Assembly: GCA_934162445.1 (NCBI GenBank)
Contig: CAKPIT010000002.1
Coordinates: forward strand, 77,379-141,378
Direction: 5' to 3'
Source: an uncultured Bacilli bacterium
Lineage (GTDB): Bacteria; Bacillota_I; Bacilli_A; RF39; UBA660
DNA: 64,000 nucleotides
Shown: positions 1,191 through 62,605 of the stretch, piece by piece
Layout of the letters: the number at the start of each line of letters is the position of its first letter
How positions within the stretch are numbered: the stretch's first letter is position 1
The notes under the pieces: model-generated
The model's input: only the letters and a program-made list of their open reading frames with translations
What the model was told of the DNA's origin: nothing
Database searches by the model: none
Program-made: the position numbers and the translations under genes

Positions 1191-1967
1191 ATGTTTAAAA
1201 TAGGTGATGTTGTTACAAGAAATTCTTATGATAATGATATTTTGTTTGTTATTATTGATATAGATCAGGATGTAGCATATTTAAAAGGACTTGATGTTAG
1301 GCTTTATGCGGATAGTTTTTTAACTGATTTAAAAAAGATGACTAATATTATGGATAATGATGATCGAGGGGATCTTTTAAAGGTCCGTGATATCTTAAAA
1401 CTTGATAGGAGTGAGTATTTTTATTTGCCGGGAAAGATTCTTCATATTGATGGAGATAAGGACTATTTGAAGCGATGTATTGATTTTTATAAAGAGATGC
1501 ATCTTGAAGCATATGGTATTAATTTAGAAGAAGAATTTATTAAGGATCAAATTGAATTACTTATTAAGGAATATAAACCAGATATTATTGTAATTACGGG
1601 TCATGATTCGTTTAAGAAAAATAAAAATAAAAATGATATTAATAGTTATCAAAATTCACTTAATTTTGTTAAAGCGGTTATTAAGGCTCGAGAATGTGAG
1701 AGAAATCAGGACAAACTTATTATTATAGCTGGGGCTTGTCAATCTTATTATGAGGATTTAATTAAGGCAGGGGCTAATTTTGCGTCTAGTCCGAAACGAA
1801 TTAATATTCATGCTCTTGATCCGGCTATTATTGCTAGTTTGATTGCTCTTCTTCCTAAAAATAAGGAAATTGATTTAATTTCTGTTATTTCCAAAACGCA
1901 TTATGGAAGTGCTGGAATGGGTGGTATTATTACAAATGGGGTTATGTATGTGGGGTATCCTAGATGA
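1191..1967 (+). CDS. yabG: Sporulation-specific protease YabG (peptidase U57)
   Basis: N-terminus FKIGDVVTRNSYDNDILFVIIDI is very similar to B. subtilis YabG (QIGDMVARKSY..ILFRIIGI). Lies downstream of ksgA and upstream of veg as in Bacillus. Ends with TGA, overlapping the veg ATG. Confidence 0.8.
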   Translation: MFKIGDVVTRNSYDNDILFVIIDIDQDVAYLKGLDVRLYADSFLTDLKKMTNIMDNDDRGDLLKVRDILKLDRSEYFYLPGKILHIDGDKDYLKRCIDFYKEMHLEAYGINLEEEFIKDQIELLIKEYKPDIIVITGHDSFKKNKNKNDINSYQNSLNFVKAVIKARECERNQDKLIIIAGACQSYYEDLIKAGANFASSPKRINIHALDPAIIASLIALLPKNKEIDLISVISKTHYGSAGMGGIITNGVMYVGYPR

Positions 1968-4892: not shown

Positions 4893-4909
4893 GGAAAAGG
4901 AGAGATTTG

Positions 4910-34279: not shown

Positions 34280-35521
34280 TTATTTTTTGTTTTTATTTAA
34301 ATTTTTGTAAAGATTATAAGGCAGATTATTGATAATTAATTCAAATTCGCCGATGTATTCTGTTATTAAGGATCCAAAACCTAATTTCATTTCATTGAGA
34401 CCAGTATACTTATTAATCTTATTAAATTCACCACTAATAGCATTTAAATTTACGTATTTAAAGTTCTTATTTTTGTAGTCATTTATCATTTTCCATTTGA
34501 TAAGGTAGCTTGGATTAAGACTTCTAAATTGTTGATTAAATCCTTCAATTACTAGATATGAAGCGTTATCATAATTAATATTAAGAGATGTTCCAATGAA
34601 AAGACCAGTTGGATATGTTTTTAATAAATTAGTAGCCCAGACTAAATTCTTTTTATAAACATTTACTAAATTATCAGATTCAATTTTTTTGTTGATTATT
34701 TTTTTCTTTAGTTTACTATTTTTATTGTTTTGAATTTCAATGGCTAAATTATTATTTATTTCTAGTTCTTTTTCATATTGGACACGACTAGTAATAACGA
34801 ATGTTTCTGTGTTTAGTTTCGCAAAGTATAAATCAACATTAGGAGAAAAATTATCAAATAAATCGATATAATAATTTAAAGGACGATTATATTTCTTTTT
34901 AACAAATTCATAGAATTCTTTTAATTGTTCTTTGTTACCTTTATATATTTCGACACCACTTCGAATGGCCTTTTTAATTTTATATCTTACGTTTTTATCA
35001 AAATCTTGATATATATCTTTAATATTTTTGTCTAAAACGACAAGGGTTTCAAATCTTGGCTTTTCAGCTTCAAAGAATAAATTTGGTCCTAAGTAGTCAT
35101 AATTGTTGGCTTTTAAGTTTTCTAAAATAATATTTGCTTCCTTATTAATATTAATAATTTTGCCATCTTTATTTCTTAAATTAGCAGGGATTAAAGGATC
35201 AATTTTTAAAGACATAAAACCTTGTTTACTAAGAAGTCTTTTTAATCTTGTGGTAAATTCTGTTAAGTTTTCTAAGTTAGTGTAATCAAATAATATTCCT
35301 CTTGGAGCATAGGCAATTTTGTAGTTCATGAATACTTCTTTATATAAAATAAGAGAAGCTCCTAAAAGGTTATTATTATCATCAATAATACCGATATAGT
35401 GAATATTACAATTGTTATTTTTCATGACTTTACCATAGGCACTAGTTTGATAATAATTGCGATATTTATGAGTTTTGGTATATTTATCAAATGTAATTTC
35501 ATCTAGGGTTATTATTTTCAT
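34280..35521 (-). CDS. FemAB-family aminoacyltransferase (peptidoglycan interpeptide bridge formation)
   Basis: About 414 aa. N-terminal pattern resembles S. aureus FemA/FemX (..SLKIDPLIP.. vs HIDPYLPY). A central coiled-coil insertion is typical of FemA/B. The ATG at 35521 has a GGAGG RBS. Confidence 0.7.
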   Translation of the reverse strand: MKIITLDEITFDKYTKTHKYRNYYQTSAYGKVMKNNNCNIHYIGIIDDNNNLLGASLILYKEVFMNYKIAYAPRGILFDYTNLENLTEFTTRLKRLLSKQGFMSLKIDPLIPANLRNKDGKIININKEANIILENLKANNYDYLGPNLFFEAEKPRFETLVVLDKNIKDIYQDFDKNVRYKIKKAIRSGVEIYKGNKEQLKEFYEFVKKKYNRPLNYYIDLFDNFSPNVDLYFAKLNTETFVITSRVQYEKELEINNNLAIEIQNNKNSKLKKKIINKKIESDNLVNVYKKNLVWATNLLKTYPTGLFIGTSLNINYDNASYLVIEGFNQQFRSLNPSYLIKWKMINDYKNKNFKYVNLNAISGEFNKINKYTGLNEMKLGFGSLITEYIGEFELIINNLPYNLYKNLNKNKK

Positions 35522-35626
35522 AACTTTTTCCTCCACTTAAATTATATCATATAACGAAAAGTTTTCAATTCTTTAGGGTTTAATTATTTTAAATATTTAG
35601 TATAATGTTAGTAATGGAGGTTTATT

Positions 35627-36994
35627 ATGTTTGAAAATAAAAAGATATTGATTTTAGGTATGGCACGGAGTGGGTATGAAGCTGCTAAGTATTTAAGCCG
35701 GTTTAATAATACAATCATTGTTAATGATGGAGGTGCAAGAGAAAAGCAGGATGTAGAAAAGATTTCAGAATTAGAAAAATTAGGAGTTACTTTAATTTTT
35801 GGATCTCATCCTGATGATTTACTTGATGATAGTTTTGACTATATTATTAAGAATCCGGGTATAAATAATAATCATAAGTATGTTACTTTGGCAAAACAGC
35901 TTAATGTTCCGGTGATTAATGAAGTGGAGATGGCTTATTTATTATTACCTAAAGATGTTACACTTATTGGTATTACGGGGTCAAATGGGAAAACTACTAC
36001 TACTACTTTAACTTATGAAATGATTAAATCAAGTGGTAAAAGGGTACATTTAGCAGGTAATATTGGATATCCATTGTGTAGTTTTTTAGATAAAGTTCAA
36101 AGTGGTGATATTATAGTGATGGAGGTTAGTTGTCAACAGCTAGCTAATACTGATAAGTTTAAACCACATATTGGATTAATGACTAATTTAGCCGAAGCAC
36201 ATATTGATTTCTTTGGTAGTTATGAAGCTTATAAAGAAGTTAAATTGAAGTTATTTAAAAATCAAACGGAAGATGATATTGCCATTTTAAATATTGAAAA
36301 TAAAGATGTAATGGAAGGGACTAAGAATATTCTTTCATGTACTAAATATTTTTCTAGTAAACGAGTAATTAATGGAGCATATTTTAATGATAATAAACTT
36401 TATTATTATGATGAAATGATTATGGATAGAGATGAGTTTTTCTTAAAAGGTAATCATAATGTTGAAAATGCGTTAGGTGCTTTGATGATTGCTAAAGAAG
36501 TAGGAGTTAGTACTGATGTAATTGTTAAGGTTTTGAAAACTTTTAAAGGGGTAACTCATCGTTTGGAATTTATTGATGAGGTTAATGGGGTTAAGTATTA
36601 TAATGATACAGAGGCTACTAATACCAAATGTACCCAAATTGCTTTAAATTCTTTTGATGATGATATTATTTTAATTTTAGGGGGATTAGAGCGAGGTCAA
36701 GATTTTCATGATTTAGATAATTATATGAAAAATGTTAAGGAAATAATAGGGATTGGTCAGTGTCGTGATAGAGTTAAGGAATATGGGGCTGATATTGGAA
36801 TTAAAACAACAATTTATGAGAGACTTCATGAGGCTTTTGATTATATTTCTTTGCAAGCTAAAAAGGGGGATGTTGTTCTTTTGAGTCCTGCTTCTGCTTC
36901 ATGGGATCAATATAAACAATGTGAAGATCGAGGCGATGAATTTAAAGACTTAGTTTCTAAACTTAAACATAAAGGAGAAGGTAATGAAGATTAA
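35627..36994 (+). CDS. murD: UDP-N-acetylmuramoylalanine--D-glutamate ligase
   Basis: Mur ligase P-loop [14 protein letters not shown], an N-terminal Rossmann-like domain, and about 455 aa. Isolated from the dcw cluster. Confidence 0.75.
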
Positions 36995-42337: not shown

Positions 42338-42721
42338 GGGGATGAAATGGTTTCGACAGGAATAATGGAACATAAACGGCAAGTCGAGTTGTTTACGTTA
42401 CAAACTAACAAATAATAACTGGAAACAGTATAAAAACAGCATTTGCTAATTTATTTGGTAAAAGAACTCCAGAATTAGCTTTAGCCTAGTTTAGGTAGAT
42501 GCACTGCTTATTCTTAATTTTCTACGTTAAGATGTAGTGGTTTATATTTAGTAGAATATAGTTATAGAATGTCTTGGCTATAACTGAATTATTAAGACTT
42601 GAATTGATTTATAGTTGATGATTACTAAGAATTAATTTGAAATTTGCTTAATCATCTAAACTTGTAGATGTTTATGAGGATTTATTTTTGGACAGGAGTT
42701 CAACTCTCCTCATCTCCACCA
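42338..42721 (+). ncRNA. ssrA: tmRNA (ssrA)
   Basis: 5' GGGGATGAAATGGTTTCGACAGG pairs with a 3' tRNA-like end. T-arm GGAGTTCAACTCTCC, then CATCTCCACCA. An internal tag reading frame ends ...PELALA-TAG at 42487-42489. Follows smpB. Confidence 0.8.
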
Positions 42722-43413: not shown

Positions 43414-43489
43414 GCCGACTTAGCTCAGTTGGTAGAGCAACTCATTCGTAATGAGTAGGTCGAAGGTTCAAGTCCTTTAGTCGGCACCA
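43414..43489 (+). tRNA. tRNA-Thr (anticodon CGU)
   Basis: Cloverleaf: acceptor GCCGACT/AGTCGGC, D-arm GCTC-AGTTGGTA-GAGC, anticodon stem ACTCA/TGAGT with loop TTCGTAA (anticodon CGT), T-arm GAAGG-TTCAAGT-CCTTT, and an encoded 3' ACCA. Confidence 0.85.
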
Positions 43490-43569: not shown

Positions 43570-44772
43570 ATGGAAAAAGAAAGAATGAGAGTTAGTATTT
43601 TACCTAATCAGTTCTTAGGAAGTGATGGGGTTTTTGATAAAGAGGGGGCTATTAAACTTTCTGCTAAAATAGCAGGGGTTTGTTATGATAAATTAGGATT
43701 TAATAATCTTGTTAACGAACCATTGGAAAAGACTAAAAGACGGGCTGATTTAACGCTTTCAATGGGACATTATAGTGTTTATGATCATATTTTTATAAGT
43801 TTTAATTTAGAAAATATTCCTAAGATGTTAGCAATGGTTTTAAACAATGAGAAACAGTATACGACTAGTGAGAAATCGGCTCGGTATACAAAAATTGTTA
43901 AAAATGAAGGATCTAATATTACTTCTTTGGAGGAGGAACTTTATAATAAGTGGTTAGATATTTTTAAGTTTAAAATTAAAGATACTTATGGTGATGTTTT
44001 AAATGATTCTAAAATTGTTAAGTTGGCTCAAGAGAATGCAAGATATTTGGTAACGGTGTTTATGCCAACTGAGATGATTTATACTACATCGTTAAGACAA
44101 GTTAATAATTTAGCAGCTTTTATGAAAGAATATATGGCTAATATTGATACAAATAGTAGTTTTGATAGGAAGCTTGCTGAATCTATGGGTGAATTGATAA
44201 CTTGTTTTGATAAACTTAATGTTCTTGATGAAAGACTTATGAAAAATGAAAAAAATAGATGTTTATCTATTTTTGGTCATGATTTAGCTAATAAGCAAGA
44301 ATATTTTGGTGATATTTATTCTACTATATATATGGGATCTTTTGCTTCTTATGCTCAAGCTCAAAGACATAGAACCCTTTCTTATCAATTTGAAATGCTT
44401 GATGATAAAAAGTATTTTGTGCCACCTATTTTAGATGATGATGAAAAGTTAGTGAATGAATGGAATTGTGATATTAGAAGTGTTCATGAGGTTATACCAC
44501 AAGGGGAGATGCTTTTAATAAGTGAAGTAGGAAAGTATGATGACTTTATCTTAAAAAGTAAAGAAAGATTATGTACTTCGGCACAACTTGAAATAATGTT
44601 ACAGACTAGGAATACATTATTAAAATATAAGGAAGCATTAGAAAATACTAATAATCCACTTGCTGAAGATATTTTAAAATATTCACATGGGGCAAGATGT
44701 ACATTTCCGGATTTTAAATGTCCTAATGATTGTAATTTTAAAGAAGGGAAGACTTTAGTAAGAAAAATTTAA
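43570..44772 (+). CDS. Divergent ThyX-fold (FAD-dependent thymidylate synthase family) protein, ~400 aa, lacking the RHR motif at its canonical position
   Basis: N-terminus aligns with ThyX (AKIAGVCYDK vs ARVSF/ACYQS; MGHYSVYDHIFISF vs GHFSVLEHASVSF). At the ThyX motif RHRx7S..RY this protein has NEKQYTTSEKSARY, so Ser and RY are kept but RHR is lost. An RHR occurs about 150 aa later (SYAQAQRHRTLSY). The protein is about 150 aa longer than typical ThyX. Confidence 0.45.
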   Translation: MEKERMRVSILPNQFLGSDGVFDKEGAIKLSAKIAGVCYDKLGFNNLVNEPLEKTKRRADLTLSMGHYSVYDHIFISFNLENIPKMLAMVLNNEKQYTTSEKSARYTKIVKNEGSNITSLEEELYNKWLDIFKFKIKDTYGDVLNDSKIVKLAQENARYLVTVFMPTEMIYTTSLRQVNNLAAFMKEYMANIDTNSSFDRKLAESMGELITCFDKLNVLDERLMKNEKNRCLSIFGHDLANKQEYFGDIYSTIYMGSFASYAQAQRHRTLSYQFEMLDDKKYFVPPILDDDEKLVNEWNCDIRSVHEVIPQGEMLLISEVGKYDDFILKSKERLCTSAQLEIMLQTRNTLLKYKEALENTNNPLAEDILKYSHGARCTFPDFKCPNDCNFKEGKTLVRKI

Positions 44773-48566: not shown

Positions 48567-48594
48567 TTGACATATTAATGATTTGCTTTATAAT
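48567..48594 (+). promoter_or_regulatory. Consensus sigma-A promoter driving the 48617 cargo gene
   Basis: TTGACA (48567-72), a 16 nt spacer, TATAAT (48589-94), then RBS AGAGAGGTG and the ATG at 48617. Confidence 0.6.
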
Positions 48595-48616
48595 ATTCAT
48601 AAGAGAGGTGAATAGT

Positions 48617-49264
48617 ATGCAAATTGTGTATAATCCTAATGATATAGATAAATTGTTATTTACGGAGTTAGTAATTGCTAAAAATCAAAATGCTTCTGAT
48701 AAAAATATATTTGAAGATGAGATATATCGAAGATTTAGATTTTGTGGATTTGATGATAGATTTACAAAAGAAATGATTGAATATGAAGAAACTATTTTAG
48801 AGGTAACAAAAAAAGAGTATGATAAATATTTTTATCAGATAAAATATTGGACTAGTCTTGGTGATAATGAAAAATTATTTAAAGATAATATTGAGTCATA
48901 TGCTTTGTATATAGATGGTGAAATGTCTGATAAGGCTTTTACTACTAGTGAACTTATAAGTATATATGATGAAGGTGATTTTATTATTAGATATGGTAGT
49001 GATATTTATAGTAGTCATTTAGAAGAAATTGATATGGTTACTTCTAATAGTAAATATAATTTATTAGATGAGTTTAGAAATAGAATTGGTTATATTCTTT
49101 TTAGGGAATTTAAACAAGAATATGATTCTAATATTGATATTTGTGCTGCTAGGCTTTATAAAAATGAGGCTCATATATTGTTCATAAATAAGTATAAATA
49201 TGCTGATAATGATGATAGAAAGTGGAAGCCATATACGAGGGAATTTTTTAATTATTATGATTAA
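48617..49264 (+). CDS. Hypothetical acidic, aromatic-rich cytoplasmic protein (215 aa), element cargo
   Basis: Clean ORF with a strong promoter and RBS. No TM helices and no recognisable catalytic motifs. Confidence 0.4.
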   Translation: MQIVYNPNDIDKLLFTELVIAKNQNASDKNIFEDEIYRRFRFCGFDDRFTKEMIEYEETILEVTKKEYDKYFYQIKYWTSLGDNEKLFKDNIESYALYIDGEMSDKAFTTSELISIYDEGDFIIRYGSDIYSSHLEEIDMVTSNSKYNLLDEFRNRIGYILFREFKQEYDSNIDICAARLYKNEAHILFINKYKYADNDDRKWKPYTREFFNYYD

Positions 49265-49377
49265 ATGTTTGTAGATTACATTTTTATGTGTCTACTTTTT
49301 TATTGTTTTAATAATATGACAAAAATAGTAAGTAATAATTAAGTATTTAGTTCATATGTTTTAATGGGTGACTTTTT

Positions 49378-49482
49378 ATGAGAGTGACATGTTATTTTGA
49401 TGAGAATGGTAAATCATTTCAAGAAATTATAGAGCAATTTCTAGTTCTTTATTATAATGAAACTTTAATAGAAAATGGTTAA
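49378..49482 (+). CDS. 34-aa ORF immediately upstream of the recombinase (possible directionality factor/leader)
   Basis: ATG..TAA open frame ending 18 nt before the recombinase start. Speculative. Confidence 0.2.
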   Translation: MRVTCYFDENGKSFQEIIEQFLVLYYNETLIENG

Positions 49483-49500
49483 AAAATTTAGGAGGTAATT

Positions 49501-51090
49501 ATGGTAAGTAGTGAAATGTATAAAGTAGGTATTTATTTAAGATTATCTCATGAAGATAAATTAAAAGGTGAGAGTGGAAGTATTTCTAATCAAAGAGACA
49601 TCATTCATAAATATATAAAAGAAAATAATTTATTATATGTAAGTGAATATGTTGATGATGGTGTCAGTGGGACGCAATTTGATAGGGTTGGATGGAATAA
49701 ATTAATTGAGGATATTGAATCCGGATGTATTAATATGGTAATTACTAAGGACTTATCAAGATTTGGAAGGAATGAGGGACAACAGTTAAGGTATTTAGAT
49801 TATTTCTACGAAAAAGGAATAAGATATGTGGCGTTACTTGATAATGTTGATACATTTGATGAATATAATACATCTAATGAAATGATTCCAATACAGTGTT
49901 TTTTTAATGAGAAGCATGTAAGAGATACTTCTAAAAAGATGAAGGCGAGTGTATATAATAAAAGAAGTCAAGGTAATTTTTTGGGTAAGACTGCTCCTTA
50001 TGGTTATAAGAAAGATCCTAATAATAAATATAAGTTGATTGTTGATGAGGTGGCTTCAAAAGTGGTTAAAAGAATATTTGATTTATTTGTTAAGGGAAAA
50101 GGAATTTGTGAAATATCTAGAATTTTAACATATGAGAAAGTACCTATTCCTACTGAGTATAAGGGCCTTAAATCTGGTCATATGTCAATAGGGTATGGTA
50201 TTTGGAATAATAGAACTATTAGTGATATGTTGACTCTTCCTACTTATGTTGGTGATTTAACGCAAGGGAGGTCAAAAAAACCTAGTTATAAATCAAAGAA
50301 AAGAGTAAGGGTTAAACCTGAAGATTGGATAATATGTGAAAATAAATGTCCAGCTATAATTGATAGAGATACATTTAATCTGGTTCAAGACATATATAAT
50401 AGGAATAAAAACCAAGGTAAACATACACAAGATATATTACTTAAGGGTTTTGTGTATTGTAAAGAATGTGGTCATACAATAGGTTTTAGACTTCAAAAAG
50501 TTAATACTAAAAAGAAAGGTGAAGTTACTAGATGTTATGGTAATTGTAATTACTGGGCTAAACATAAAAAATATGATTTATGTACTCCTCACAATATTAA
50601 GTACTATGAATTAGAAGATTTAGTATTGAGTGAGATAAAGAAAATGTGTAAAAATTATTTGAAAATTAGGGATTTAGAGAATGTATTAGCGAATAGTGAC
50701 AAAACTAAAAGAATAGTAAATGAGTTAGAAATAAATTTAAAAAAATTAGTAGCAGAAGTTGAATTTAGTAATAAGAAAAAAGAAGACTTATATAGTGATA
50801 AATTAGATGGCATTATTGATTTAGAAATGTATAAAAGAATGACTAATAGAATAGCTGAAGAAACAATCACTAAACAAAACGAGATAGCAGAAATAAAAAC
50901 TAGAATATATAATATAAATAATAATATTACTAATAATAATAAAAAATATGAAAGTGTTATAAAAGAATATTTATCTATGAAAAAACCTAGTGTACAATTA
51001 TTATCTAGTATCATAGATAAAATAGTTATAGATGAAAATAAAAATGTAGAGATATATTATAAATTTAAGCCATTTGAAAATGGTTATTAA
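49501..51090 (+). CDS. Large serine recombinase (resolvase/invertase N-terminal domain, recombinase domain, zinc ribbon)
   Basis: The N-terminal resolvase domain has a catalytic Ser context (GIYLRLSHED, SISNQRD, DLSRFGRN). The middle region is a recombinase domain. C-terminal zinc ribbon (CKECGH...CYGNC) and coiled-coil. 529 aa. Confidence 0.85.
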   Translation: MVSSEMYKVGIYLRLSHEDKLKGESGSISNQRDIIHKYIKENNLLYVSEYVDDGVSGTQFDRVGWNKLIEDIESGCINMVITKDLSRFGRNEGQQLRYLDYFYEKGIRYVALLDNVDTFDEYNTSNEMIPIQCFFNEKHVRDTSKKMKASVYNKRSQGNFLGKTAPYGYKKDPNNKYKLIVDEVASKVVKRIFDLFVKGKGICEISRILTYEKVPIPTEYKGLKSGHMSIGYGIWNNRTISDMLTLPTYVGDLTQGRSKKPSYKSKKRVRVKPEDWIICENKCPAIIDRDTFNLVQDIYNRNKNQGKHTQDILLKGFVYCKECGHTIGFRLQKVNTKKKGEVTRCYGNCNYWAKHKKYDLCTPHNIKYYELEDLVLSEIKKMCKNYLKIRDLENVLANSDKTKRIVNELEINLKKLVAEVEFSNKKKEDLYSDKLDGIIDLEMYKRMTNRIAEETITKQNEIAEIKTRIYNINNNITNNNKKYESVIKEYLSMKKPSVQLLSSIIDKIVIDENKNVEIYYKFKPFENGY

Positions 51091-51111
51091 AAATAGAAAA
51101 AAATTAAACCT

Positions 51112-51846
51112 TTGTTAGTATATGTTCTCACTCCTAGTTTAAATAAAAGTTTTAAATTTCAAAGTGATTGGCCGTATAATAATTCACAGATCTATTTATT
51201 GGAATCATTGATTAATGATATTAAAAATGATAATAAAAGTGAATTTAAAACGAAAAGTGATGGCTATATTTTTACTAGTAAAGTAAATTATCCTAATAAT
51301 CGTAATTTGGTAAGACAAAAGGTTAGTCTTGATAAGAAGGTTAATTTAAAGAAAGTAATAGTTTTGGATAGTGATAGTGTTCCTAATATGACTTTAAATA
51401 TTAAAAAGATTGATTATAATCCACATTTTAGTAAAAATTATTTTAATCTTGATGATATTATGGGTAGTAGTTCTAGTAAAGATACTAAGACGGAGAAAAC
51501 AGGAATTATTAATGATGTTATTTATCCTTTGGTTCTTCCTGAGGGGACTAAGTTAACTAATGAAGAAACAGTAAAAAAAGATGATGGTAATCGGGTTATT
51601 CTTACTTTTTCTGGGGAAAAGCCATTTACTTTAGTGGAAGAAGTAGATATGGTTAATGATCAGTTTACGGTAATACCAACGATGGGGGAACCGTTTATGA
51701 TAATGGATAGTCTTGGGGTATTGGGTGATAATTCAGTTAACTTTAGTTCAAATGGTATTAGTTATTACTTGGTTAGTGATGTTATGAATCAAAGTGAACT
51801 TTTGGAAATTGCTAATTCGATAAATGTTTTACCAACAATGAAATAA
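51112..51846 (+). pseudogene. 3' fragment of the interrupted lipoprotein gene (LolA-like/DUF4367-like?)
   Basis: No signal peptide. Frame opens 3 codons after the in-frame TAG at 51094. Begins LLVYVLTPSLNK. The combined N- and C-fragment length is about 340 aa. Confidence 0.5.
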
Positions 51847-51902
51847 GCACGAAAGTGTTTATTTTTTTTAGTTTTTATGGTACTATTTAAGTGGTGATAT
51901 AT

Positions 51903-52388
51903 ATGAAGAAAACAACTTATGGAAATGAAATGCAAGGACAAGTTAAAAAAGTTATAATTATTCTTGTAGTTATAGTTATTTTATTAGGAGGAACTTATTT
52001 ATTAACAACTAAAATATTAAAGAAAAGTAATAGTACTACTTCTAATAAGGTTACTAAAAATAGTATTCAATATGATGAAATTTTAGCAGGGGAATCATTT
52101 AATCAAAATAATGATGAATATTATGTTATATATTTTGACAAAAGTAATAACTCTTCTTCTTTTAGCTCATTAGTTAGTTCTTATCAGTTAAATAATACTA
52201 AGACAAGAATGTATAGTGTTGATCTTAGTAGTGGCTTTAATAAAGATTATGTGACTGATGGTGAAGCTGTTGTTCACGATATTAATGACTTTAAAGTTAA
52301 AGATGGAACATTAATTAAAGTTAAAAATGGGGAAGTAGAAGAGGTAATAACTGATACAACTGAAATTACAAATATTTTGAATAGTTAG
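51903..52388 (+). CDS. Membrane-anchored hypothetical protein
   Basis: N-terminal TM helix (VIIILVVIVILLGGTYLL). About 160 aa. No family recognised. Confidence 0.4.
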   Translation: MKKTTYGNEMQGQVKKVIIILVVIVILLGGTYLLTTKILKKSNSTTSNKVTKNSIQYDEILAGESFNQNNDEYYVIYFDKSNNSSSFSSLVSSYQLNNTKTRMYSVDLSSGFNKDYVTDGEAVVHDINDFKVKDGTLIKVKNGEVEEVITDTTEITNILNS

Positions 52389-55929: not shown

Positions 55930-58287
55930 TTATAGTACTTCAATTTCATCATTAATATCATGCCATGTCCAGTTTTTGATTTCGTCTAAATCTTCACCAT
56001 ATTCTTTGATATATTCAGAATGTTTGATTAACTGGTCTTTACACCATTCATATAGAGGTGTTCTTTTATCTTCTAAGAAGTCTAAATATTTTAAGGCATC
56101 CATGACAAGGTGATATCTATCTATTTTGTTTTGAACTCGCATATCAAATGGAGTGGTAATAGTTCCTTCTTCAATATAACCATGAACGTGAATATTTTTA
56201 TTTTCGCGTTTGTAGGTTAATTGATGAATTAAAGATGGATAGCCATGGAAGGCGAATATAATAGGTTTATCTTTAGTGAAGAGCATATTATAATCTTGAT
56301 TACTTAATCCATGTGGATGTTCATAGTTTGATTGTAATTTCATTAAGTCAACAACATTGACACATCTTATTTTTATTTGTTTAAAATAGTTATGTAAAAT
56401 GGAAATGGCTGCAAGAGTTTCAACAGTTGGAGTATCTCCACAACAAGCCATAATTATATCTGGTCCTTCTTTTTGATCGTTGCTGGCCCAGTTGAAAATA
56501 CCAATTCCTTTACTACAATGATTAACAGCTTCTTCCATTGATAACCATTGCATACTTGGATGTTTAGATGCTACTACAACATTTATGTAGTTTTTACTTT
56601 TGATACAATGATCAATTGTGGATAATAAACAGTTAGCATCTGGGGGTAAATATATTCTTGCAATGTCAGCTTTTTTGGTGGCAATATGGTTTAAAAAACC
56701 GGGATCTTGATGAGTATATCCATTATGATCTTGTTGCCATATATGGGATGTTAATAAATAATTTAGGGATGATATCCTACGGCGCCAATCAAGTTGTTGA
56801 CATACTTTTAACCATTTTGCATGTTGACTAGTCATAGAGTCCACAATTCTAACGAAAGCTTCATAAGTATCAAATATTCCGTGTCTGCCAGTTAAAATGT
56901 ATCCTTCTAATAGTCCTTCACAGATATGTTCTGATAAAAAAGAATCAATTACTTGTCCCGTTGGAGCGAGATATTCATCAGTATCTAGAATTTGGCCGGT
57001 GAATTGTCTATTGGTATAATCAAAGATAGCATTTAAACGGTTTGATAGAGCTTCATCAGGACCAAAGATACGGAAGTTATGATTTTTCTTCATAACGTCT
57101 TCAAGATAGTATCCTAAGACTTTGGTATCTTGAGCTTTAGTAGTACCATGTTTTGTTACTTCAACTTTGTAGTTACGAAAATCTGGTAGATGCAATTCTT
57201 TTAAAAGAAGGCCACCATTAGCATATGGATTAGCACCCATACGTCTAATGCCTGTAGGGGCAAGAGCTTTTAAATCTTCTTTTAGGGAACCATCACTATT
57301 AAATATATCTTCTGGATGGTAACTTTTTAACCACTGTTCTAATAGATCAACATGTTCCATATGATCTTGATCAACAGGAAGTGGTACTTGATGGGAACGA
57401 AAACTTCCTTCGATAGTTTTACCATCATAGGTTTTAGGACCGGTCCATCCTTTTGGTGTTTTTAAAATTATCATTGGCCAAAGGGGTCTTTGATTAGTGT
57501 TTGCTTCTTTTATTTTCTTAATTTTTATAATAGTACTATCAAGGGCTTTAGCCATTTCTTCATGTAATAGGGATGGGTCTTTTCCTTCTATATAAATGGG
57601 ATCATAGCCATAACCTTTAAATAAATTCAATAATTCTTCTTTTGAGATTCTAGCTAAAATAGTGGGATTGGCAATTTTATAACCATTTAAATTTAAAATG
57701 GGTAGGACAACACCATCGGTTTTAGGATTTAGTAATTTGTTACAATGCCATGAGGTTGCTAAGGGACCAGTTTCTGCTTCACCATCACCAACGACGACAG
57801 TGGCAATTAAATCTTTATTATCAAGAACAGCTCCAAAACCATGAACAAGGCTGTAACCTAGTTCGCCACCTTCGTTAATTGAACCCGGAGTTTCAGGGGC
57901 AACATGAGATGATATTCCTTTGGGAAAACTGAATTGTTTAAATAATTTTTTTAGGCCTTCTTCATCTTGTGAGATATTAGGATATATTTCACTATAGGTT
58001 CCTTCTAGGTAAACATTTGATACAATAGCATTACCTCCATGACCCGGTCCTGAGATATAAATCATATTTAAATCATATTTTTTGATTATTCTATTTAAAT
58101 GTGCATAAATAAAATTTTGGGCAGGAACAGTTCCCCAATGACCAACTACTTTCTTTTTTAAATCATCTTTTTTTAATGGCCTTTTTAAAAGGGGATTATC
58201 TTTTAGATAAAGTTGTCCTACTGATAAGTAATTGGCAGCATTAAAATAGCGATTTATTCTTTCTTTTTCTTCGTTAGATAGTATCAT
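55930..58287 (-). CDS. xfp: Xylulose-5-phosphate/fructose-6-phosphate phosphoketolase
   Basis: 785 aa with an XFP N-terminal signature (..GHWGT.PG.NF..AH.NR) and ThDP-binding motifs (GPGHGG, EGGELGY). Confidence 0.9.
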
Positions 58288-58344
58288 AAATGCCTCCCTT
58301 TATTCTATTACATTATAATCTAAAAAAGTTATTTTCACAAGAGT

Positions 58345-58830
58345 TTAGGTTATTAATTTACAAGTAATTACTAATTGTTTGTAACTACTTTTTAGACTAC
58401 AGGTGGTTAAAATTAATTTTTTATTATTAGTTTTATTTATTTCAATAGTTCCATCTTTTTTTTGTTCTTCTATTTTTTCTATTTGATAATTTGTTAATTC
58501 ATTATTCAAGTTTATTGTTATTTTGTCACCTTTATTTAATTGATAAAGATCATTAAACAAGGCTTTAGGACCAGTTCCAGAATGGGCTGCTAAGACTAGA
58601 AGATTATGTTCGTTTTTTATAATAGTAACATTTTCTTCAATATTGTTTTTTTTACCTTTATAAAGAGGTTTTTGAAAGTTTATTTTTTTAATTTCTAAAT
58701 AACCAATTTTATCATCTTCTATCTTTTCTTTTTCTTGTTTATAATTTAAGTCTTTGCTTTGATATATGAAAAGACAACTACTAGAATAAATTATGATAAG
58801 AAGAAGATTAAGAAAACTTTTTTTTAGCAA
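58345..58830 (-). CDS. Sortase-family transpeptidase (small)
   Basis: N-terminal signal anchor. Catalytic His context LLVLAAHSG. TLXTC Cys motif as LILTTCS. Overlaps the end of the upstream surface-protein gene. Confidence 0.6.
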   Translation of the reverse strand: MLKKSFLNLLLIIIYSSSCLFIYQSKDLNYKQEKEKIEDDKIGYLEIKKINFQKPLYKGKKNNIEENVTIIKNEHNLLVLAAHSGTGPKALFNDLYQLNKGDKITINLNNELTNYQIEKIEEQKKDGTIEINKTNNKKLILTTCSLKSSYKQLVITCKLIT

Positions 58831-60301
58831 GATATAGTCCTAGTATTATTATACTGAATGATGAAGTATAGTCTTTGGTATTAGTATTTGGTACTTCGAT
58901 TGATATTATATTATCATTTGGTTTTTCTTCTTTATAATCATTAATTTTATAATAATAGGTTTTATTTATATCATTTATAAAGACTTTAAATGGTTCAATT
59001 TTAGAGTAACCTTTGGTTGTTGTTAGTTGTACAAATTTATAATGACCATAGGGTAGTGTTATTTTAGCTGTTCCATTACTATCGGTTACTATTTCTTTAA
59101 TCATGTTACCATCTTTGTCAAAAACTTGAAATTTAACATTAGCTTCTTTTTCCATTAATTTACCATTTCCAAAATATTTTTTTATAATAACATCTTTTTT
59201 GATTACTTCATTTTCAATGATTAGATTAATATTATAATTATCTTTAGTGAATTCTATTTTATAGGTGGTGTCATTAGGTAGATATCCTGTTCCTGTTTTA
59301 CTTTCTTTTAGGTAGTAAGTTCCATAGGTTAGCCATGGGGTATTATCACTATTTAAGTTTAATTCATAATTATCATCAAGGCTTAGTGTAGCCATTTCTT
59401 GCATTTCGCTGTTATAGATTTTAAAAGTTGTATCTTTTAGACTGGCTTCGCCTAGACTTTTGGTTGATTTAGTATCTTTATTAATCTTTTTAATTTTTAA
59501 ATTTAAATTTTGAACACAGTATTTTACTTTTATGATTCTGTTATCAGGACTTCCAGCAGTAGCAAGATTTTGGGTATCTTTGTTGTAATAGAATAATACG
59601 GATTCATTATCATAGTTCAAATATCTTGTATACTCACGTTCATAACATCCCGGATTTTTCTTGGTTATGGTTAAGGTGTTATTTTTAACGACAAAATCAT
59701 TATCATCAGGAATGGCAAAGAAAGGAATAATATTATTGGTATCAGTTATAGTAAAGGGTCTATTGGTTATTCCATAGAAGGTTTGGTTACTAAATGAGGG
59801 AAGGGTATAACTTTCATTAATAAGATTATTAATCATGTTCATTTCACTAGTGAAAAGTTCTACTTTCTTGCCATTTAGAGTTTTGGTAAAATAGAAATCG
59901 TTATTTGGATCGACGGTTTTCCAGATTAGCATTTGGGTAGCAGCATACCAATTATAACTATTATGGCCTTGATAATTATAGCCAAAACCAATGATATCTT
60001 TAATTCTATTTAATGTCTCTTTGCTGATATCTTGATATTCGTCTACTGTTTCATAAATGTTGTTTTGGGGATCAAACTTCCTAAATGGTTGGAGACAATA
60101 GGCTACTTTGTTGTCTTTACTTCTTCGGTATAGTCTAGCTTGTTGTTAGTATTTGTCCTTAGTTTGTTTGTTGTATCTAACCATACAGATGTTACTGATG
60201 GTTTCTGCTTCATAAAAGCTTTCAGTAGCAGCATTTACAGTTAGATTAGCTCCTAGTAAATAAATAAAACTGAGTGTTAAGAATAATAATAATTTTTTCA
60301 T
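58808..60301 (-). pseudogene. Sortase-substrate surface protein gene interrupted by an in-frame TAA
   Basis: From the ATG at 60301 (GGAGGAG RBS) the frame gives a 51-codon signal peptide (MKKLLLFLTLSFIYLLGANLTVNAATESFYEAETISNICMVRYNKQTKDKY), then a TAA at 60146-60148, then stays open in the same frame through the annotated 374-aa ORF. The C-terminus is VPNTN..hydrophobic..KKKFS, a sorting-signal-like tail. Confidence 0.5.
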
Positions 60302-60502
60302 TAGATCTCCTCCTTTTTCTTAACGGTTTCTAATTTAACAGGCTAAGGAGGTTGAGGCAAATCGGGAATTTTAAAAAATTAAGTGATTTTGATGAGCAAA
60401 TTTAGTGATTAATCTAAGTGTTTTGACTTTTTTAGATTAGTTTGTCAGGACTTTTTTAAAATTTAAAGTATTTTTCTTTACAAATAAAAATAATAATGAT
60501 AT

Positions 60503-60540: not shown

Positions 60541-60837
60541 ATGAAAGATGAATTAATGATGAAATTAACTAATTTTTACAAAGTATTTGCTGATTTTTCT
60601 CGGCTTAAAATTTTGTTTTTACTTAGTGAAGGTAGTTATAAGGTTAGTGAAATTACAAGTAAACTTGCTATTAGTCAATCGGCTGTTTCTCATCAATTAC
60701 ATTTGTTACGACAACTTGATTTGGTTAAAGTAGACCGTGTTGGGAAAGAGTCATATTATAGTTTAAGTGATCATCATATAAATATTATCTTAGATTATGG
60801 ACTTATGCATATTATGGAGGAAAAAGATGAAAAATAA
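60541..60837 (+). CDS. ArsR/SmtB-family metalloregulator (CadC-like)
   Basis: 98 aa. FKVFADFSRLKIL motif and HTH (VSEITSKLAISQSAVSHQL). Confidence 0.7.
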   Translation: MKDELMMKLTNFYKVFADFSRLKILFLLSEGSYKVSEITSKLAISQSAVSHQLHLLRQLDLVKVDRVGKESYYSLSDHHINIILDYGLMHIMEEKDEK

Positions 60838-62605
60838 TATTATTAGACTTGCTTTTGGACTTCTTTTCTTTATTTTAGGACTTATTTTTGATTTATTACC
60901 ATTTTATTTAGTGAGTTATATAATTCTTGGATATGATATTTTTATTAAGTCTTTTAATAATATTAAAAATAAAGATTTTTTTGATGAGAATACTTTAATG
61001 CTTTTGGCTACGGTTTGTGCTTTTTTGATTTCTAAAAATAGTGAAGCGGTACTTGTTATTATGCTTTATCAAATAGGGGAAATTTTATCTGATTATGCAG
61101 TTGATAGTTCCAAAGAAAAGATTGCTAAACTTATGGATCTTAGGGTTGATACTGCTAGAGTTGTTGATAATAATAAGGAAACGATGGTGGAATCTTGCGA
61201 TGTTAAAATTGGGGATGTGGTTTTAGTTAAACCGGGGGAAAAAGTGCCTCTTGATGGAGTTTGTCTTTCTTCTTCTGTTAGTTTAGATACTAAGAGTTTA
61301 ACAGGGGAAGCGCTACCAGTTGTTGTTTCTTTAGATGATGAAGTACTTAGTGGTAGTATTGTGTTGAATAAACCAATTATGGTTAAAGTTACAAAGAGAT
61401 TTGACGACTGTACTGTTAGTAAGATTGTTAAATTTATGATGGATGCTGATACTAATAAAACTGATAAAGAACGGTTTATTACAAGATTTTCAAAAGTATA
61501 TACACCAATTATTTGTGCTTTAGCACTTCTTATCTTTTTAATTCCGACAGTTTTAGGCTATGATTTTAAAGTTTACTTATATAAAGCCTTAATTTTCTTA
61601 GTTATTTCTTGCCCTTGCGCTTTAGTGATTTCAGTACCACTTAGTTTCTTTTCAGGAATTGGTAGATGTAGTAAGGAAGGAATACTGGTTAAGAATACGA
61701 TGATACTTGAAAAAGCCCTTTTGATAACTACCATTTTTTATGATAAGACAGGAACTCTTACTAATGGTGAATTTGAGGTTGTTGATATTGTACCGTCTAA
61801 AGGAGTTAGCAGTGATAAATTAAAAGAATTAAGCACAGCAGCAGAGATTTATTCTAATCATCCGTTAAGTAATGTATTATCATTTGATTATAAAATTCTA
61901 AAAAAAGATGTTAAAGATTTAGAGGAAGTAGCGGGTAAAGGGATTCGTTGTTTATATAAAAATAAGGAATTGTTGGTAGGAAAGTTTAAAGAGAACAACT
62001 TAGAGGTTTTTGGAAGTGTTGTTAATATTATATATGATGATAAATATATAGGTTATATTGTAATTAGTGATACCCTTAAGAAGGAGTCAAAAGATGCAGT
62101 GTCTAGGCTTAAAAAGATGGGAATAGAACAAGTAATGTTAACTGGTGATAATGAGACATTTGCTAAAAAGATAGCTTCTAAATTAGGAATTAATTATAAA
62201 GCATCATTACTTCCTATTGATAAGGCTAAAAATGTGTCTAAGGCTCTTAGTAATGATAAGGTTGTAGCCTTTGTAGGTGATGGTATTAATGATGCGCCAT
62301 CATTGGTTACTAGTGATATTGGTATTTCTATGGGAAGTATTGGTAGTGATGTGGCCCTTGAAGCTTCACAAGTGGTTTTAATGAATGATAATTTAAACGG
62401 TATAGAAAAACTTATTAATATTAGTAAGTATACAGATCTTAAAATTAAAGAAAATATTATATTTGCCCTTTGCTTTAAAGTATTAATTTTAATATTAGGA
62501 CTATTTGGTAGTGTTTCTATTTATATGGCTATTTTTGCAGATGTAGGAGTTATGTTATTAACAATTTTGAATAGTTTATTAATCTTTAAAAAGAAATTTG
62601 ATTAG
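60827..62605 (+). CDS. P1B-type heavy-metal-translocating ATPase (CadA-like) lacking an N-terminal HMA domain
   Basis: CPC in TM6 (SCPCALVIS), DKTGTLT phosphorylation site, GDGINDAP hinge. About 592 aa. No CxxC metal-binding domain. Overlaps the arsR-like stop. Confidence 0.8.
   Translation: MKNNIIRLAFGLLFFILGLIFDLLPFYLVSYIILGYDIFIKSFNNIKNKDFFDENTLMLLATVCAFLISKNSEAVLVIMLYQIGEILSDYAVDSSKEKIAKLMDLRVDTARVVDNNKETMVESCDVKIGDVVLVKPGEKVPLDGVCLSSSVSLDTKSLTGEALPVVVSLDDEVLSGSIVLNKPIMVKVTKRFDDCTVSKIVKFMMDADTNKTDKERFITRFSKVYTPIICALALLIFLIPTVLGYDFKVYLYKALIFLVISCPCALVISVPLSFFSGIGRCSKEGILVKNTMILEKALLITTIFYDKTGTLTNGEFEVVDIVPSKGVSSDKLKELSTAAEIYSNHPLSNVLSFDYKILKKDVKDLEEVAGKGIRCLYKNKELLVGKFKENNLEVFGSVVNIIYDDKYIGYIVISDTLKKESKDAVSRLKKMGIEQVMLTGDNETFAKKIASKLGINYKASLLPIDKAKNVSKALSNDKVVAFVGDGINDAPSLVTSDIGISMGSIGSDVALEASQVVLMNDNLNGIEKLINISKYTDLKIKENIIFALCFKVLILILGLFGSVSIYMAIFADVGVMLLTILNSLLIFKKKFD

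What the first reader, a model, noticed from the sequence alone, without database searches (positions are those of the whole stretch)
58345..60301. In-frame TAA separates the signal peptide from the body of a sortase-anchored surface protein
Reading the minus strand from the ATG at 60301 (good GGAGGAG RBS) gives a 51-aa signal-peptide segment, then TAA at 60146-60148. The same frame then continues without interruption through 71 more codons into the annotated 374-aa ORF. That ORF ends in a sorting-signal-like tail (VPNTN, hydrophobic stretch, KKKFS) and overlaps a downstream small sortase with the TLXTC-like motif LILTTCS. The locus is therefore a sortase-substrate pair whose substrate carries a single nonsense codon. 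Possible explanations are a recent pseudogene, a sequencing error, a phase-variable site, or programmed readthrough. The sorting motif ending in TN resembles class B (NPQTN-like) signals, although the sortase is unusually small.
Basis: seen in the sequence. Interest (0 to 1): 0.5.

Follow-up and report, generated by a model that had tools for sequence, protein, structure and literature searches.

The report
Strain-specific nonsense mutation in thioester adhesin
One strain of an uncultured gut bacterium carries a single-base stop mutation (Tyr52 to TAA) that knocks out a conserved surface adhesin gene which is intact in sister strains and in 80 related species, so this is an ordinary recent gene loss and not a recoding signal.

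Summary
On the minus strand, an ATG at 60301 with a GGAGGAG ribosome-binding site opens a 497-codon frame. Its only interruption is TAA at 60146-60148 (codon 52).

The gene encodes a Class II thioester-domain (TED/TIE) adhesin: signal peptide, TED (Cys69, TQMLIW, Gln244), two SpaA/CnaB-type stalk domains and a VPNTN sorting signal. A 161-aa sortase overlaps its 3' end.

The stop replaces a conserved Tyr. Conspecific strains (99% identical, 22 contigs) read TAT. None of 80 related species has a disrupted copy.

TAA is the window's main terminator (32 of 57 genes). No downstream RNA structure, repeat or suppressor tRNA was found.

The TAA allele occurs in ENA, NCBI and Logan assemblies. Its lineage carries 5 nonsynonymous and 0 synonymous private changes in this gene, against 4:12 in neighbouring genes (p=0.006). 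That fits a real, recent null allele.

Codon 52 lies inside a β-strand of the TED, not between the signal peptide and the body. The class B sortase suggestion is not supported.

Side observations are more unusual than the stop: the sortase family lacks the canonical catalytic Arg, and a Hadza-derived clade has adhesin and sortase fused by an A8→A7 change.

The parts
60307..60313 (-). Ribosome-binding site GGAGGAG, 5 nt upstream of the adhesin start codon
   Evidence: Read directly from the sequence.
60149..60301 (-). Codons 1-51 of the adhesin gene: signal peptide (about residues 1-24, MKKLLLFLTLSFIYLLGANLTVNA|A) plus the first 27 mature residues (β-strand A and the start of strand B of the thioester domain)
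   Evidence: ORF list and translation. In the AF2 model of the intact orthologue, residues 2-18 are helical and strands span 26-44 and 49-60 with pLDDT 92-95.
60146..60148 (-). Premature stop TAA at codon 52. It derives from TAT (Tyr) by a T>A transversion at window position 60146, and the next base is C
   Evidence: The window, L007 and L008 read TAA, while L001-L006 read TAT. The change is private to this lineage among four conspecific alleles. Tyr occupies this column in 73 of 80 species and in at least 90% of 25 aligned homologs.
58808..60145 (-). Remainder of the adhesin reading frame (codons 53-497 plus the natural TAA stop), now untranslated. The first possible in-frame start is ATG at 59932 (codon 124), which has no SD motif
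59492..60226 (-). Class II thioester domain (about residues 26-270). Y68-C69-L-Q (Cys codon 60095-60097), T122-Q-M-L-I-W127 (59921-59938), and the invariant candidate bond-forming Gln244 (59570-59572)
   Evidence: Pfam TED scores 35.4 bits against a cutoff of 22. C69, Q123, W127 and Q244 are invariant in 55 homologs. The family profile matches 6fx6 SaTIE-TED. Foldseek matches 6fwv at E=7e-25 and 6fx6 at TM 0.71. Motif definitions come from PMC6194298.
58931..59479 (-). Two SpaA/CnaB-type prealbumin-fold stalk domains (about residues 275-364 and 368-457)
   Evidence: Pfam SpaA at 1e-17 with 2 stretches. β-rich segments in the model. PDB matches to pilin and CnaB domains.
58811..58894 (-). C-terminal sorting signal: VPNTN (58880-58894), a hydrophobic segment (SSFSIIILGLYLA) and the basic tail KKKFS
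   Evidence: Translation. VP[N/D]T is present in all 80 related species. V470, P471 and T473 are invariant in alignment A1.
58818..58825 (-). A8 homopolymer in the 23-nt adhesin/sortase overlap. A7 in a divergent conspecific clade fuses the two genes in frame
58345..58830 (-). 161-aa sortase with a TTG start overlapping the adhesin 3' end. It has an N-terminal membrane helix, His83 (AAHSG), Cys144 (LTTCS, codon 58399-58401) and an invariant Gln152 (58375-58377) next to the column where other sortases have the catalytic Arg
   Evidence: Pfam Sortase scores 51 bits against a cutoff of 26.6. TIGR01076 scores 56.7 against 39.35. Conservation is shown, and the alignment to 4d70. The model has pLDDT 88.9. 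The fold is closest to class C sortases.

Best explanation
The locus is a two-gene surface-display module of an uncultured, low-GC gut Bacilli species. It consists of a Class II thioester-domain (TIE-type) adhesin and its dedicated small sortase.

In this strain a single T>A transversion changed Tyr52 (TAT) to TAA. This created a null allele, that is, a very recent pseudogene.

Translation from the strong RBS now stops after 51 residues (inferred from the sequence). After signal-peptide cleavage, only a 27-residue fragment of the first β-hairpin of the thioester domain would be exported (inferred).

No in-frame start codon exists before codon 124, and that ATG has no SD motif. Any re-initiated product would therefore lack the signal peptide and the thioester Cys69.

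The sortase start overlaps the adhesin's 3' end and no terminator or clear promoter lies between the two genes. Loss of translation across 1.3 kb probably also lowers sortase expression through polarity and lost coupling (inferred, not shown).

The functional state, seen in sister strains, is a 497-aa protein. It would be secreted, form a Cys69-Gln244 thioester for covalent binding to a host or partner ligand, stand on two isopeptide-type stalk domains, and be cleaved at VPNT|N and linked to peptidoglycan by the adjacent sortase (by analogy with BaTIE and SaTIE).
For: 1. The frame, the stop and the domain content are verified.
2. A 99%-identical, continuous 497-aa orthologue occurs on 22 contigs with TAT at codon 52. 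The window, L007 and L008 have TAA.
3. Tyr52 is conserved in at least 90% of 25 homologs and in 73 of 80 species. It lies in a confidently modelled β-strand of the TED.
4. None of 80 related species has an internal stop or frameshift, and 79 of 80 keep the adjacent sortase.
5. There is no other lesion. The window differs from the intact allele at 13 of 1494 sites in the gene and 73 of 11193 sites regionally, with no indels.
6. Polarised with four conspecific alleles, the TAA lineage has 5 nonsynonymous and 0 synonymous private changes in the adhesin, against 4:12 in flanking genes (Fisher p=0.006). The same gene shows 15:24 in intact lineages (p=0.014). Two of the missense changes, Y39C and E430K, replace a residue held by every listed conspecific allele and by the family consensus.
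7. The identical TAA sequence appears in an ENA scaffold assembly, an NCBI record and an independent Logan assembly.
8. The genetic code is standard. TAA ends 32 of 57 window genes and no other in-frame stops occur.
9. The organism makes peptidoglycan (FemAB and a MurD-like ligase are in the window), so sortase anchoring is plausible.
Against: - Raw reads were not available. Whether the allele is fixed or mixed in the sampled population is unknown.
- The ENA, NCBI and Logan records may all derive from one sample, so independent biological replication is not shown.
- The dN/dS contrast rests on only 5 changes. It could equally reflect diversifying selection on a surface protein before the knockout.
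- TAA followed by C is a context not used by any of the 32 natural TAA stops in the window. A low level of near-cognate readthrough giving a trace of full-length protein cannot be excluded.
- The polar effect on the sortase is an inference.
Confidence: 0.85

Rival explanations
1. The TAA is a sequencing, assembly or consensus artefact, or a minority variant promoted into the consensus. Under this view the real gene in this strain is intact (TAT).
For: The window appears to match metagenome-derived contigs. The three sources holding the allele share a 258-kb contig length and may stem from a single sample. Reads could not be inspected.
Against: The same base is present in two different assemblers' outputs, an ENA scaffold and a Logan contig, each 100% identical to the window over 11.2 kb and 7.3 kb. 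The site is not in a homopolymer or repeat. The same lineage carries four further private missense changes and no synonymous ones in this gene. That pattern is expected for a truly inactivated gene and not for a single miscalled base.
Confidence: 0.07
2. Stop-codon readthrough, leaky or programmed, at TAA-C still yields functional full-length adhesin. The stop would then tune expression and would not abolish it.
For: The base following the stop is C. None of the 32 natural TAA terminators in the window is followed by C. From general knowledge, a 3' C is a weak termination context in bacteria.
Against: The stop is not conserved. Conspecific alleles read TAT and all 80 related species have a sense codon, mostly Tyr. 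No stable downstream RNA structure was found (z=0.63). No suppressor tRNA is present in the window. TAA is the major terminator. The excess of missense changes suggests relaxed constraint.
Confidence: 0.03
3. The site is a reversible phase-variation switch that turns the adhesin on and off.
For: Surface adhesins are frequent targets of phase variation (general knowledge). The locus does contain one mutable homopolymer, the A8 tract at the adhesin/sortase junction, whose length differs between clades.
Against: The stop arose by a base substitution in a non-repetitive context...AAATACTAACAACAAG.... No tandem repeat or homopolymer lies at or near 60146. No invertible-element repeats were noted. 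Reversion would need a specific point mutation.
Confidence: 0.02
4. Two genuinely separate genes: a small secreted peptide gene followed by a leaderless adhesin gene.
For: Gene callers annotate a 51-aa ORF and a 374-aa ORF at this locus.
Against: Every homolog is one continuous protein of about 497 aa spanning both pieces. The 374-aa ORF starts inside the TQMLIW motif, lacks Cys69 and a signal peptide, and has no SD motif.
Confidence: 0.01

Closest known systems
Class II thioester-domain TIE adhesins (BaTIE of Bacillus anthracis, PDB 6FWV; SaTIE of S. aureus, TED PDB 6FX6; Miller et al. 2018, PMC6194298)
   Same: The architecture matches: signal peptide, N-terminal Class II TED, CnaB/SpaA-type stalk domains, then a C-terminal sortase signal. 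The YC-Φ-ζ and TQxxΦW motifs are present. An invariant Gln lies 175 residues after the Cys, matching the Class II spacing (SaTIE 171, pLS20 TIE 188). The best fold matches are 6fwv (E=7e-25) and 6fx6 (TM 0.71).
   Different: Sequence identity is only about 16%. There are two stalk domains instead of three to five. The sorting motif is VP[N/D]T-x instead of LPxTG. In this window the gene is inactivated by Y52*.
Strain-specific nonsense pseudogenes of surface adhesins in host-associated bacteria
   Same: A single point nonsense mutation sits in an otherwise intact, conserved gene. It is present in one lineage only, and there are signs of relaxed constraint.
   Different: Nothing unusual. The lesion is very young, with no frameshifts or deletions.
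Class C (pilin-specific) and class D sortases
   Same: The sortase β-barrel fold, His and TLxTC-type Cys are present. Genetic linkage to a dedicated substrate is as in pilus and class D loci. The best sequence and fold matches are to class C sortases. VPNT[S/N] resembles class D LPNTA/LPDTS signals (PMC8225981).
   Different: It fails every class-specific NCBIfam cutoff (best is class C, 60.9 against 160). At 161 aa, with a disordered 15-residue linker after the membrane helix, it has no room for a class C lid, and no pilin genes are nearby. The canonical catalytic Arg column is not conserved and is never Arg, and an adjacent Gln is invariant instead.
Class B sortase / NPQTN substrates (S. aureus SrtB-IsdC)
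   Same: The only resemblance is the window protein's motif ending in T-N, plus a dedicated sortase-substrate operon.
   Different: No class B model hit and no class B structure in the top 50 fold matches. The family motif is VP[N/D]T followed by S, Y, H, K, G or R, and N follows in only 1 of 80 species. There is no iron-uptake context.

Membership tests
Thioester domain (TED) / TIE adhesin, Class II | Pfam TED (PF08341) match above the gathering score | tested here: met
   35.4 bits against a cutoff of 22, residues 66-141.
Thioester domain (TED) / TIE adhesin, Class II | Bond-forming Cys in a [YFL]C-Φ-ζ motif (PMC6194298) | tested here: met
   Y68-C69-L70-Q71. C69 is invariant in 55 homologs.
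Thioester domain (TED) / TIE adhesin, Class II | TQxxΦW motif | tested here: met
   T122-Q-M-L-I-W127. Q123 and W127 are invariant.
Thioester domain (TED) / TIE adhesin, Class II | Bond-forming Gln (weak ΦQζΦΦ motif) about 170-190 residues after the Cys | tested here: inconclusive
   Q244 is invariant and lies 175 residues after C69. That matches the spacing in SaTIE and the pLS20 TIE. The residue before it is T/S, not hydrophobic, and the Cys-Gln geometry could not be measured with these tools.
Thioester domain (TED) / TIE adhesin, Class II | Class II fold (TED head plus inserted β-sandwich) | tested here: met
   Foldseek gives 6fwv BaTIE at E=7e-25 over 486 columns and 6fx6 SaTIE-TED at TM 0.71 over 255 columns. 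The family profile matches 6fx6 over positions 55-276.
Thioester domain (TED) / TIE adhesin, Class II | An actual intramolecular thioester bond (a 17 Da mass loss) and covalent ligand capture | not testable with these tools
   Needs mass spectrometry of recombinant TED from the intact allele.
Sortase (cysteine transpeptidase, PF04203) | Family HMM above its cutoff | tested here: met
   Pfam 51 bits against 26.6. TIGR01076 56.7 against 39.35.
Sortase (cysteine transpeptidase, PF04203) | Catalytic His and the TLxTC Cys | tested here: met
   AAHSG (H83) and LTTC (C144) are at least 99% conserved in 80 neighbours and invariant in 28 database homologs.
Sortase (cysteine transpeptidase, PF04203) | [quoted passage not shown] | tested here: not met
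   In the profile alignment to 4d70, the solved sortase's R in 'KDRYIV' pairs with a variable column (K in the window; M, T, Y, C, E or S in others). The next residue, Q152, is invariant. This rests on sequence alignment only and no structural superposition was available.
Class B sortase with NPQTN-type substrate | Class B sortase sequence or fold, and an NP(Q/K)TN-like motif | tested here: not met
   No class B hit in NCBIfam. Class C and class A folds are closest, with no class B in the top 50. The motif is VP[N/D]T-x.
Class C sortase | Class C model above its cutoff, a lid segment, and linkage to pilin genes | tested here: not met
   60.9 bits against a cutoff of 160. The protein is only 161 aa, with a disordered linker at residues 27-35 and no lid-length segment. 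The neighbours are ArsR, a P-type ATPase and phosphoketolase, not pilins.
Cell-wall sorting signal | xPxTx pentapeptide, hydrophobic segment and basic tail at the C-terminus | tested here: met
   VPNTN, SSFSIIILGLYLA and KKKFS. P and T are invariant. However, 37 of 80 relatives lack the basic tail and the residue after T is variable.
Programmed stop-codon readthrough / recoding | The stop is conserved in orthologues, a stimulatory context or structure exists, or the codon is reassigned genome-wide | tested here: not met
   A sense codon is present in conspecifics and in all 80 species. The downstream fold has z=0.63. TAA terminates 32 of 57 genes. No suppressor tRNA is in the window, but the rest of the genome could not be searched.
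Phase-variable contingency locus | A simple-sequence repeat or invertible element at the switching site | tested here: not met
   No tandem repeat or homopolymer at 60146.
Recent pseudogene (null allele) | A disabling lesion relative to intact orthologues, with relaxed constraint in the affected lineage | tested here: met
   The Y52* change is private to this lineage. Private changes are 5 nonsynonymous to 0 synonymous, against 4:12 in neighbours (p=0.006).

The most novel reading that the evidence does not exclude
The stop itself is ordinary, but the module it hits may be a previously undescribed kind of sortase system.

The sortase belongs to a small subfamily (160-250 aa) found in reduced-genome gut Bacilli. 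It has an invariant Gln next to a non-conserved column where all described sortases have the catalytic Arg. It is dedicated to a Class II thioester adhesin with a VP[N/D]T-x signal.

The module varies in state in natural populations. There is the null allele described here. There is also an A8→A7 in-frame adhesin-sortase fusion in a Hadza-derived clade, where the adhesin part still shows more synonymous than nonsynonymous private changes (12 nonsynonymous to 22 synonymous).

If the Gln truly substitutes for the Arg, and if the fusion self-processes, this would be a new sortase class and a natural substrate-enzyme fusion.
Probability: 0.2. Interest if true: 0.55.

Novelty: new member of a known kind. 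Interest (0 to 1): 0.17.

Why it matters
For the finding as given, it matters little. It is a routine, strain-level loss-of-function allele and should not be read as recoding, readthrough or phase variation.

It is useful as an annotation correction. The 51-aa and 374-aa ORFs should be merged and flagged as one pseudogene of a Class II TED adhesin.

It also shows that a conserved covalent-adhesin and sortase module of an abundant, uncultured gut Bacilli lineage is dispensable in at least one circulating strain.

The side observations could matter more. A sortase family without the canonical Arg, and a natural adhesin-sortase fusion, bear on sortase mechanism and on sortase-based protein engineering. 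Neither is established here.

Tried and rejected
- **Genome-wide codon reassignment:** rejected. 57 window ORFs are uninterrupted, and TAA, TAG and TGA are all used as terminators.
- **Suppressor tRNA:** the window holds only tRNA-Thr(CGU) and a tmRNA. The rest of the genome was not available.
- **Readthrough-stimulating RNA structure:** the 111 nt around and after the stop fold no better than shuffles.
- **Repeat-mediated switching:** TRF found nothing at the site.
- **Recurrent disruption in other species:** three apparent in-frame stops (L070, L079, L086) turned out to be the natural stop codons, with BLAST extending into the poly-A tract. The true count is 0 of 80.
- **Promoter and terminator scan:** uninformative in 27% GC DNA, with 23 hits against 15 expected and no terminators.
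- **Finding the window's own species in the GTDB representative genomes:** the best hit was only 60% identical. The species name therefore remains unknown, and only 'uncultured Bacilli / Candidatus Onthousia-like' can be said.
- **Rescue by re-initiation:** rejected. No in-frame start exists before codon 124, and that ATG has no SD motif.
- **An initial shorthand of mine:** I first took Gln123 of TQMLIW to be the thioester partner. [quoted passage not shown]
- **Residue-level structural check of the Arg/Gln column:** the fold-search tool gives no residue equivalences, so only the HMM alignment to 4d70 supports it.
Full report
**Observation.** Reading the minus strand confirms a GGAGGAG motif at 60313-60307, 5 nt upstream of an ATG at 60301. 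Translating 60301→58808 gives 497 sense positions with a single internal stop at codon 52 (TAA, 60148-60146) and the natural stop at 58810-58808. The mechanical ORF list shows the two pieces, 60146..60301 (51 aa) and 58808..59932 (374 aa), and a 161-aa ORF at 58345..58830 that overlaps the latter by 23 nt. With this strand's composition a stop is expected every 12 codons or so. The other two frames of the same stretch contain 45 and 88 stops. The chance of 122 open codons around one stop is about 2e-5.

**What the gene is.** With the stop masked, Pfam finds a thioester domain (TED, PF08341, residues 66-141, 35.4 bits against a cutoff of 22) and two SpaA prealbumin-fold domains (1e-17). The downstream ORF is a sortase (PF04203, 51 bits against 26.6). 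The TED motifs defined in the literature (PMC6194298) are all present:
- Y68-C69-L-Q matches [YFL]C-Φ-ζ.
- T122-Q-M-L-I-W127 matches TQxxΦW.
- An invariant Gln244 lies 175 residues after the Cys. That is the Class II spacing (SaTIE C296/Q467; pLS20 TIE C68/Q256).

Across 55 homologs down to 26% identity, the invariant residues include C69, Q123, W127 and Q244. An AlphaFold model of the intact orthologue is confident (pLDDT 89.1). Its best structural matches are the full-length Bacillus anthracis TIE protein 6fwv (E=7e-25, 486 columns) and the S. aureus TIE thioester domain 6fx6 (TM 0.71). Both are Class II TEDs. The C-terminus carries VPNTN, a hydrophobic segment and KKKFS. The window also encodes a FemAB-family enzyme and a MurD-like ligase. 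So the organism makes peptidoglycan, even though related MAGs are labelled 'Tenericutes' or 'Mollicutes'.

**Where the stop sits.** In the model, residues 2-18 form the signal-peptide helix. Residues 26-44 and 49-60 form a long β-hairpin (pLDDT 92-95) that leads into the strand bearing Cys69. Codon 52 is therefore inside a structured strand of the thioester domain. It is not at a junction between signal peptide and 'body'. The 51-aa product contains 27 mature residues.

**Comparison with relatives.** A search of 5.8 billion proteins returned a continuous 497-aa protein, P0001, that is 99% identical over the full length. It also returned dozens of relatives of 495-505 aa at about 60% identity. 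P0001 has Tyr at position 52, and the column is nearly invariant (KYYQ[K/Q]AR).

At the DNA level, six loci with the intact allele read TAT, while the window and two other contigs read TAA. This is one T>A transversion at window position 60146. The two TAA contigs (ENA scaffold of SAMEA4969178, 258 kb; Logan assembly of ERR7738585) are 100% identical to the window over 11.2 kb and 7.3 kb. The truncated ORF is on record from NCBI, ENA and Logan.

Against the intact allele, the region differs at 73 of 11,193 sites with no indels. The adhesin has 13 differences in 1,494 nt and no second lesion.

A DNA-level scan of one genome per species found 320 relatives. In the best 80, all uncultured gut Bacilli including Candidatus Onthousia, none has a real internal stop or frameshift. 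Three apparent stops were the natural terminators. In 79 of 80 the sortase lies immediately downstream, and the exception ends at a contig edge. Tyr occupies column 52 in 73 of 80.

**Is the stop biologically real and consequential?** I polarised substitutions with four conspecific alleles: the window, L001, L090 and the 2%-divergent L089. The TAA lineage has 21 private changes in 7.9 kb. Five fall in the adhesin and all five are nonsynonymous: Y39C, Y52*, T256I, K299E and E430K. The other genes show 4 nonsynonymous and 12 synonymous changes (Fisher p=0.006). The same gene in the intact lineages shows 15:24 (p=0.014). Y39C and E430K replace a residue held by every listed conspecific allele and by the family consensus. 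This pattern is expected for a gene released from purifying selection. It is not expected for a single miscalled base or for an efficiently read-through stop. The numbers are small, though, and diversifying selection is an alternative.

**Alternatives tested.**
- Recoding: TAA terminates 32 of 57 window genes (TAG 20, TGA 5) and no other ORF is interrupted.
- Suppressor tRNA: none in the window.
- Readthrough context: the 111 nt around and after the stop fold no better than shuffles (z=0.63). The one unusual feature is that the stop is followed by C, which none of the 32 natural TAA stops is. Trace readthrough therefore cannot be excluded.
- Phase variation: no repeat at the site.
- Re-initiation: no in-frame start before codon 124 and no SD motif there.
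- Two genes: refuted by the orthologues.

**Mechanistic reading.** Shown:
- The intact gene encodes a secreted Class II TED adhesin with a VPNT-type sorting signal and a dedicated adjacent sortase.
- This strain carries Y52*.

Inferred:
- Translation ends after 51 residues.
- Nothing functional is made from the remaining 445 codons.
- Sortase expression probably drops as well. Its TTG start overlaps the adhesin's end, no terminator separates the genes, and the promoter scan was uninformative.
- The adhesin module is therefore off in this strain.
- The lesion is very young, because it is the only disabling change and total divergence in the gene (0.87%) is close to the regional background (0.65%).

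**The sortase and the 'class B' idea.** The sortase passes the generic family models but none of the class models. The best is class C at 60.9 bits against a cutoff of 160, and there is no class B hit. Its model (pLDDT 88.9) has an N-terminal membrane helix and a β-barrel. It is closest to class C and then class A sortases, with no class B structure in the top 50. Across 80 species the motif is VPNT (67), VPDT (12) or VPYT (1). The following residue is S, Y, H, K, G, R, A or N, and N follows only once. The NPQTN analogy therefore fails. Class D signals such as LPNTA and LPDTS (PMC8225981) are a closer resemblance.

**Things noticed in passing.**
1. The sortase family keeps His (AAHSG) and Cys (LTTC) but has no Arg where all described sortases have one. 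In the profile alignment to 4d70, 'TCtkksktkQlv' pairs with 'TCTNRGKDRYIV'. This places the canonical Arg on a variable column and puts an invariant Gln next to it. [quoted passage not shown]
2. The 90% cluster of the adhesin contains three distinct 649-aa proteins that are in-frame adhesin-sortase fusions. In L089, a Hadza metagenome contig, the cause is A8→A7 in the overlap (window 58818-58825), together with a 6-nt deletion in the sortase. In that lineage the adhesin part has 12 nonsynonymous and 22 synonymous private changes, so it looks functional.

**Verdict.** Its 'recent pseudogene' option is the supported one. The finding is an ordinary strain-specific null allele of a new member of a known adhesin family. 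Interest is low. The non-canonical sortase and the natural fusion are the parts of this locus that might repay further work.

Noticed in passing
window 58345-58830 (minus); Gln152 codon at 58375-58377; alignment A3: The sortase and all its relatives lack the canonical catalytic Arg. This holds for 80 genomic neighbours of the adhesin and for 28 database homologs of 160-250 aa down to 30% identity. His and Cys are invariant. The Arg column (by HMM alignment to PDB 4d70) is variable, and the next residue is an invariant Gln. The protein passes the generic sortase models but none of the class A-F models.
   Followed up: partly
window 58818-58825 (A8 tract, minus strand); L089 3001-4950; proteins P0128, P0133, P0134: In a 2%-divergent conspecific clade that includes a Hadza metagenome contig, the A8 tract in the adhesin/sortase overlap is A7. 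This fuses adhesin and sortase into one 649-aa ORF (TED + SpaA + Sortase). Three distinct fusion sequences exist, and the adhesin part has 12 nonsynonymous and 22 synonymous private changes. The fusion therefore appears to be maintained and is unlikely to be an assembly error. The predicted topology (adhesin outside, two membrane helices, sortase outside) would still be coherent.
   Followed up: partly
L009-L088 (C-termini of the adhesin homologs): The sorting signal of this family is VP[N/D]T followed by a highly variable residue (S 32, Y 16, H 13, K 7, G 5, R 5, A 1, N 1). In 37 of 80 species the protein ends right after the hydrophobic segment with no basic tail. In at least two of these (L070, L086) the stop codon is the TAA that begins the poly-A tract.
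   Followed up: partly
window 1-64000, especially 56001-60000: GC skew is very strong and uniform (0.2-0.45 in 2-kb windows) and almost all genes lie on the + strand. The skew collapses to about 0.05 exactly over the minus-strand block of phosphoketolase, sortase and adhesin.
   Followed up: no
window 48578-52388: A large serine recombinase (49501-51090; Resolvase + Recombinase + Zn_ribbon_recom) is flanked by three ORFs with no Pfam match (48578-49264, 51112-51846, 51891-52388). This may be a mobile-element or prophage remnant, or a sporulation-type excision element.
   Followed up: no
window 1191-1967, 34280-35536, 35627-36994: A YabG-type sporulation peptidase, a FemAB-family peptidyltransferase and a MurD-like Mur ligase are present in a lineage whose MAGs are often labelled Tenericutes, Mollicutes or Mycoplasma. 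The organism evidently has a peptidoglycan wall, so those labels are misleading.
   Followed up: partly
window 60797-62605: Between the window and the intact-allele strain L001, the P-type ATPase next to the ArsR regulator differs by 8 nonsynonymous and only 3 synonymous changes. That is a higher amino-acid-changing fraction than in the housekeeping neighbours (ClpB 1:7, phosphoketolase 3:10).
   Followed up: no
window 4907-6877 and 43570-44772: The FtsH homolog carries a C-terminal Rho_N-like segment (residues 622-655, E=1.2e-6). The ThyX-like ORF is 400 aa, but only residues 26-181 match the Thy1 domain, so it is unusually long or fused to an unrecognised C-terminal half.
   Followed up: no
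window 42338-42721 and 43414-43489: A tmRNA gene (tag peptide GNSIKTAFANLFGKRTPELALA) and a tRNA-Thr(CGU) are the only small RNA genes that ARAGORN detected in the window.
   Followed up: no
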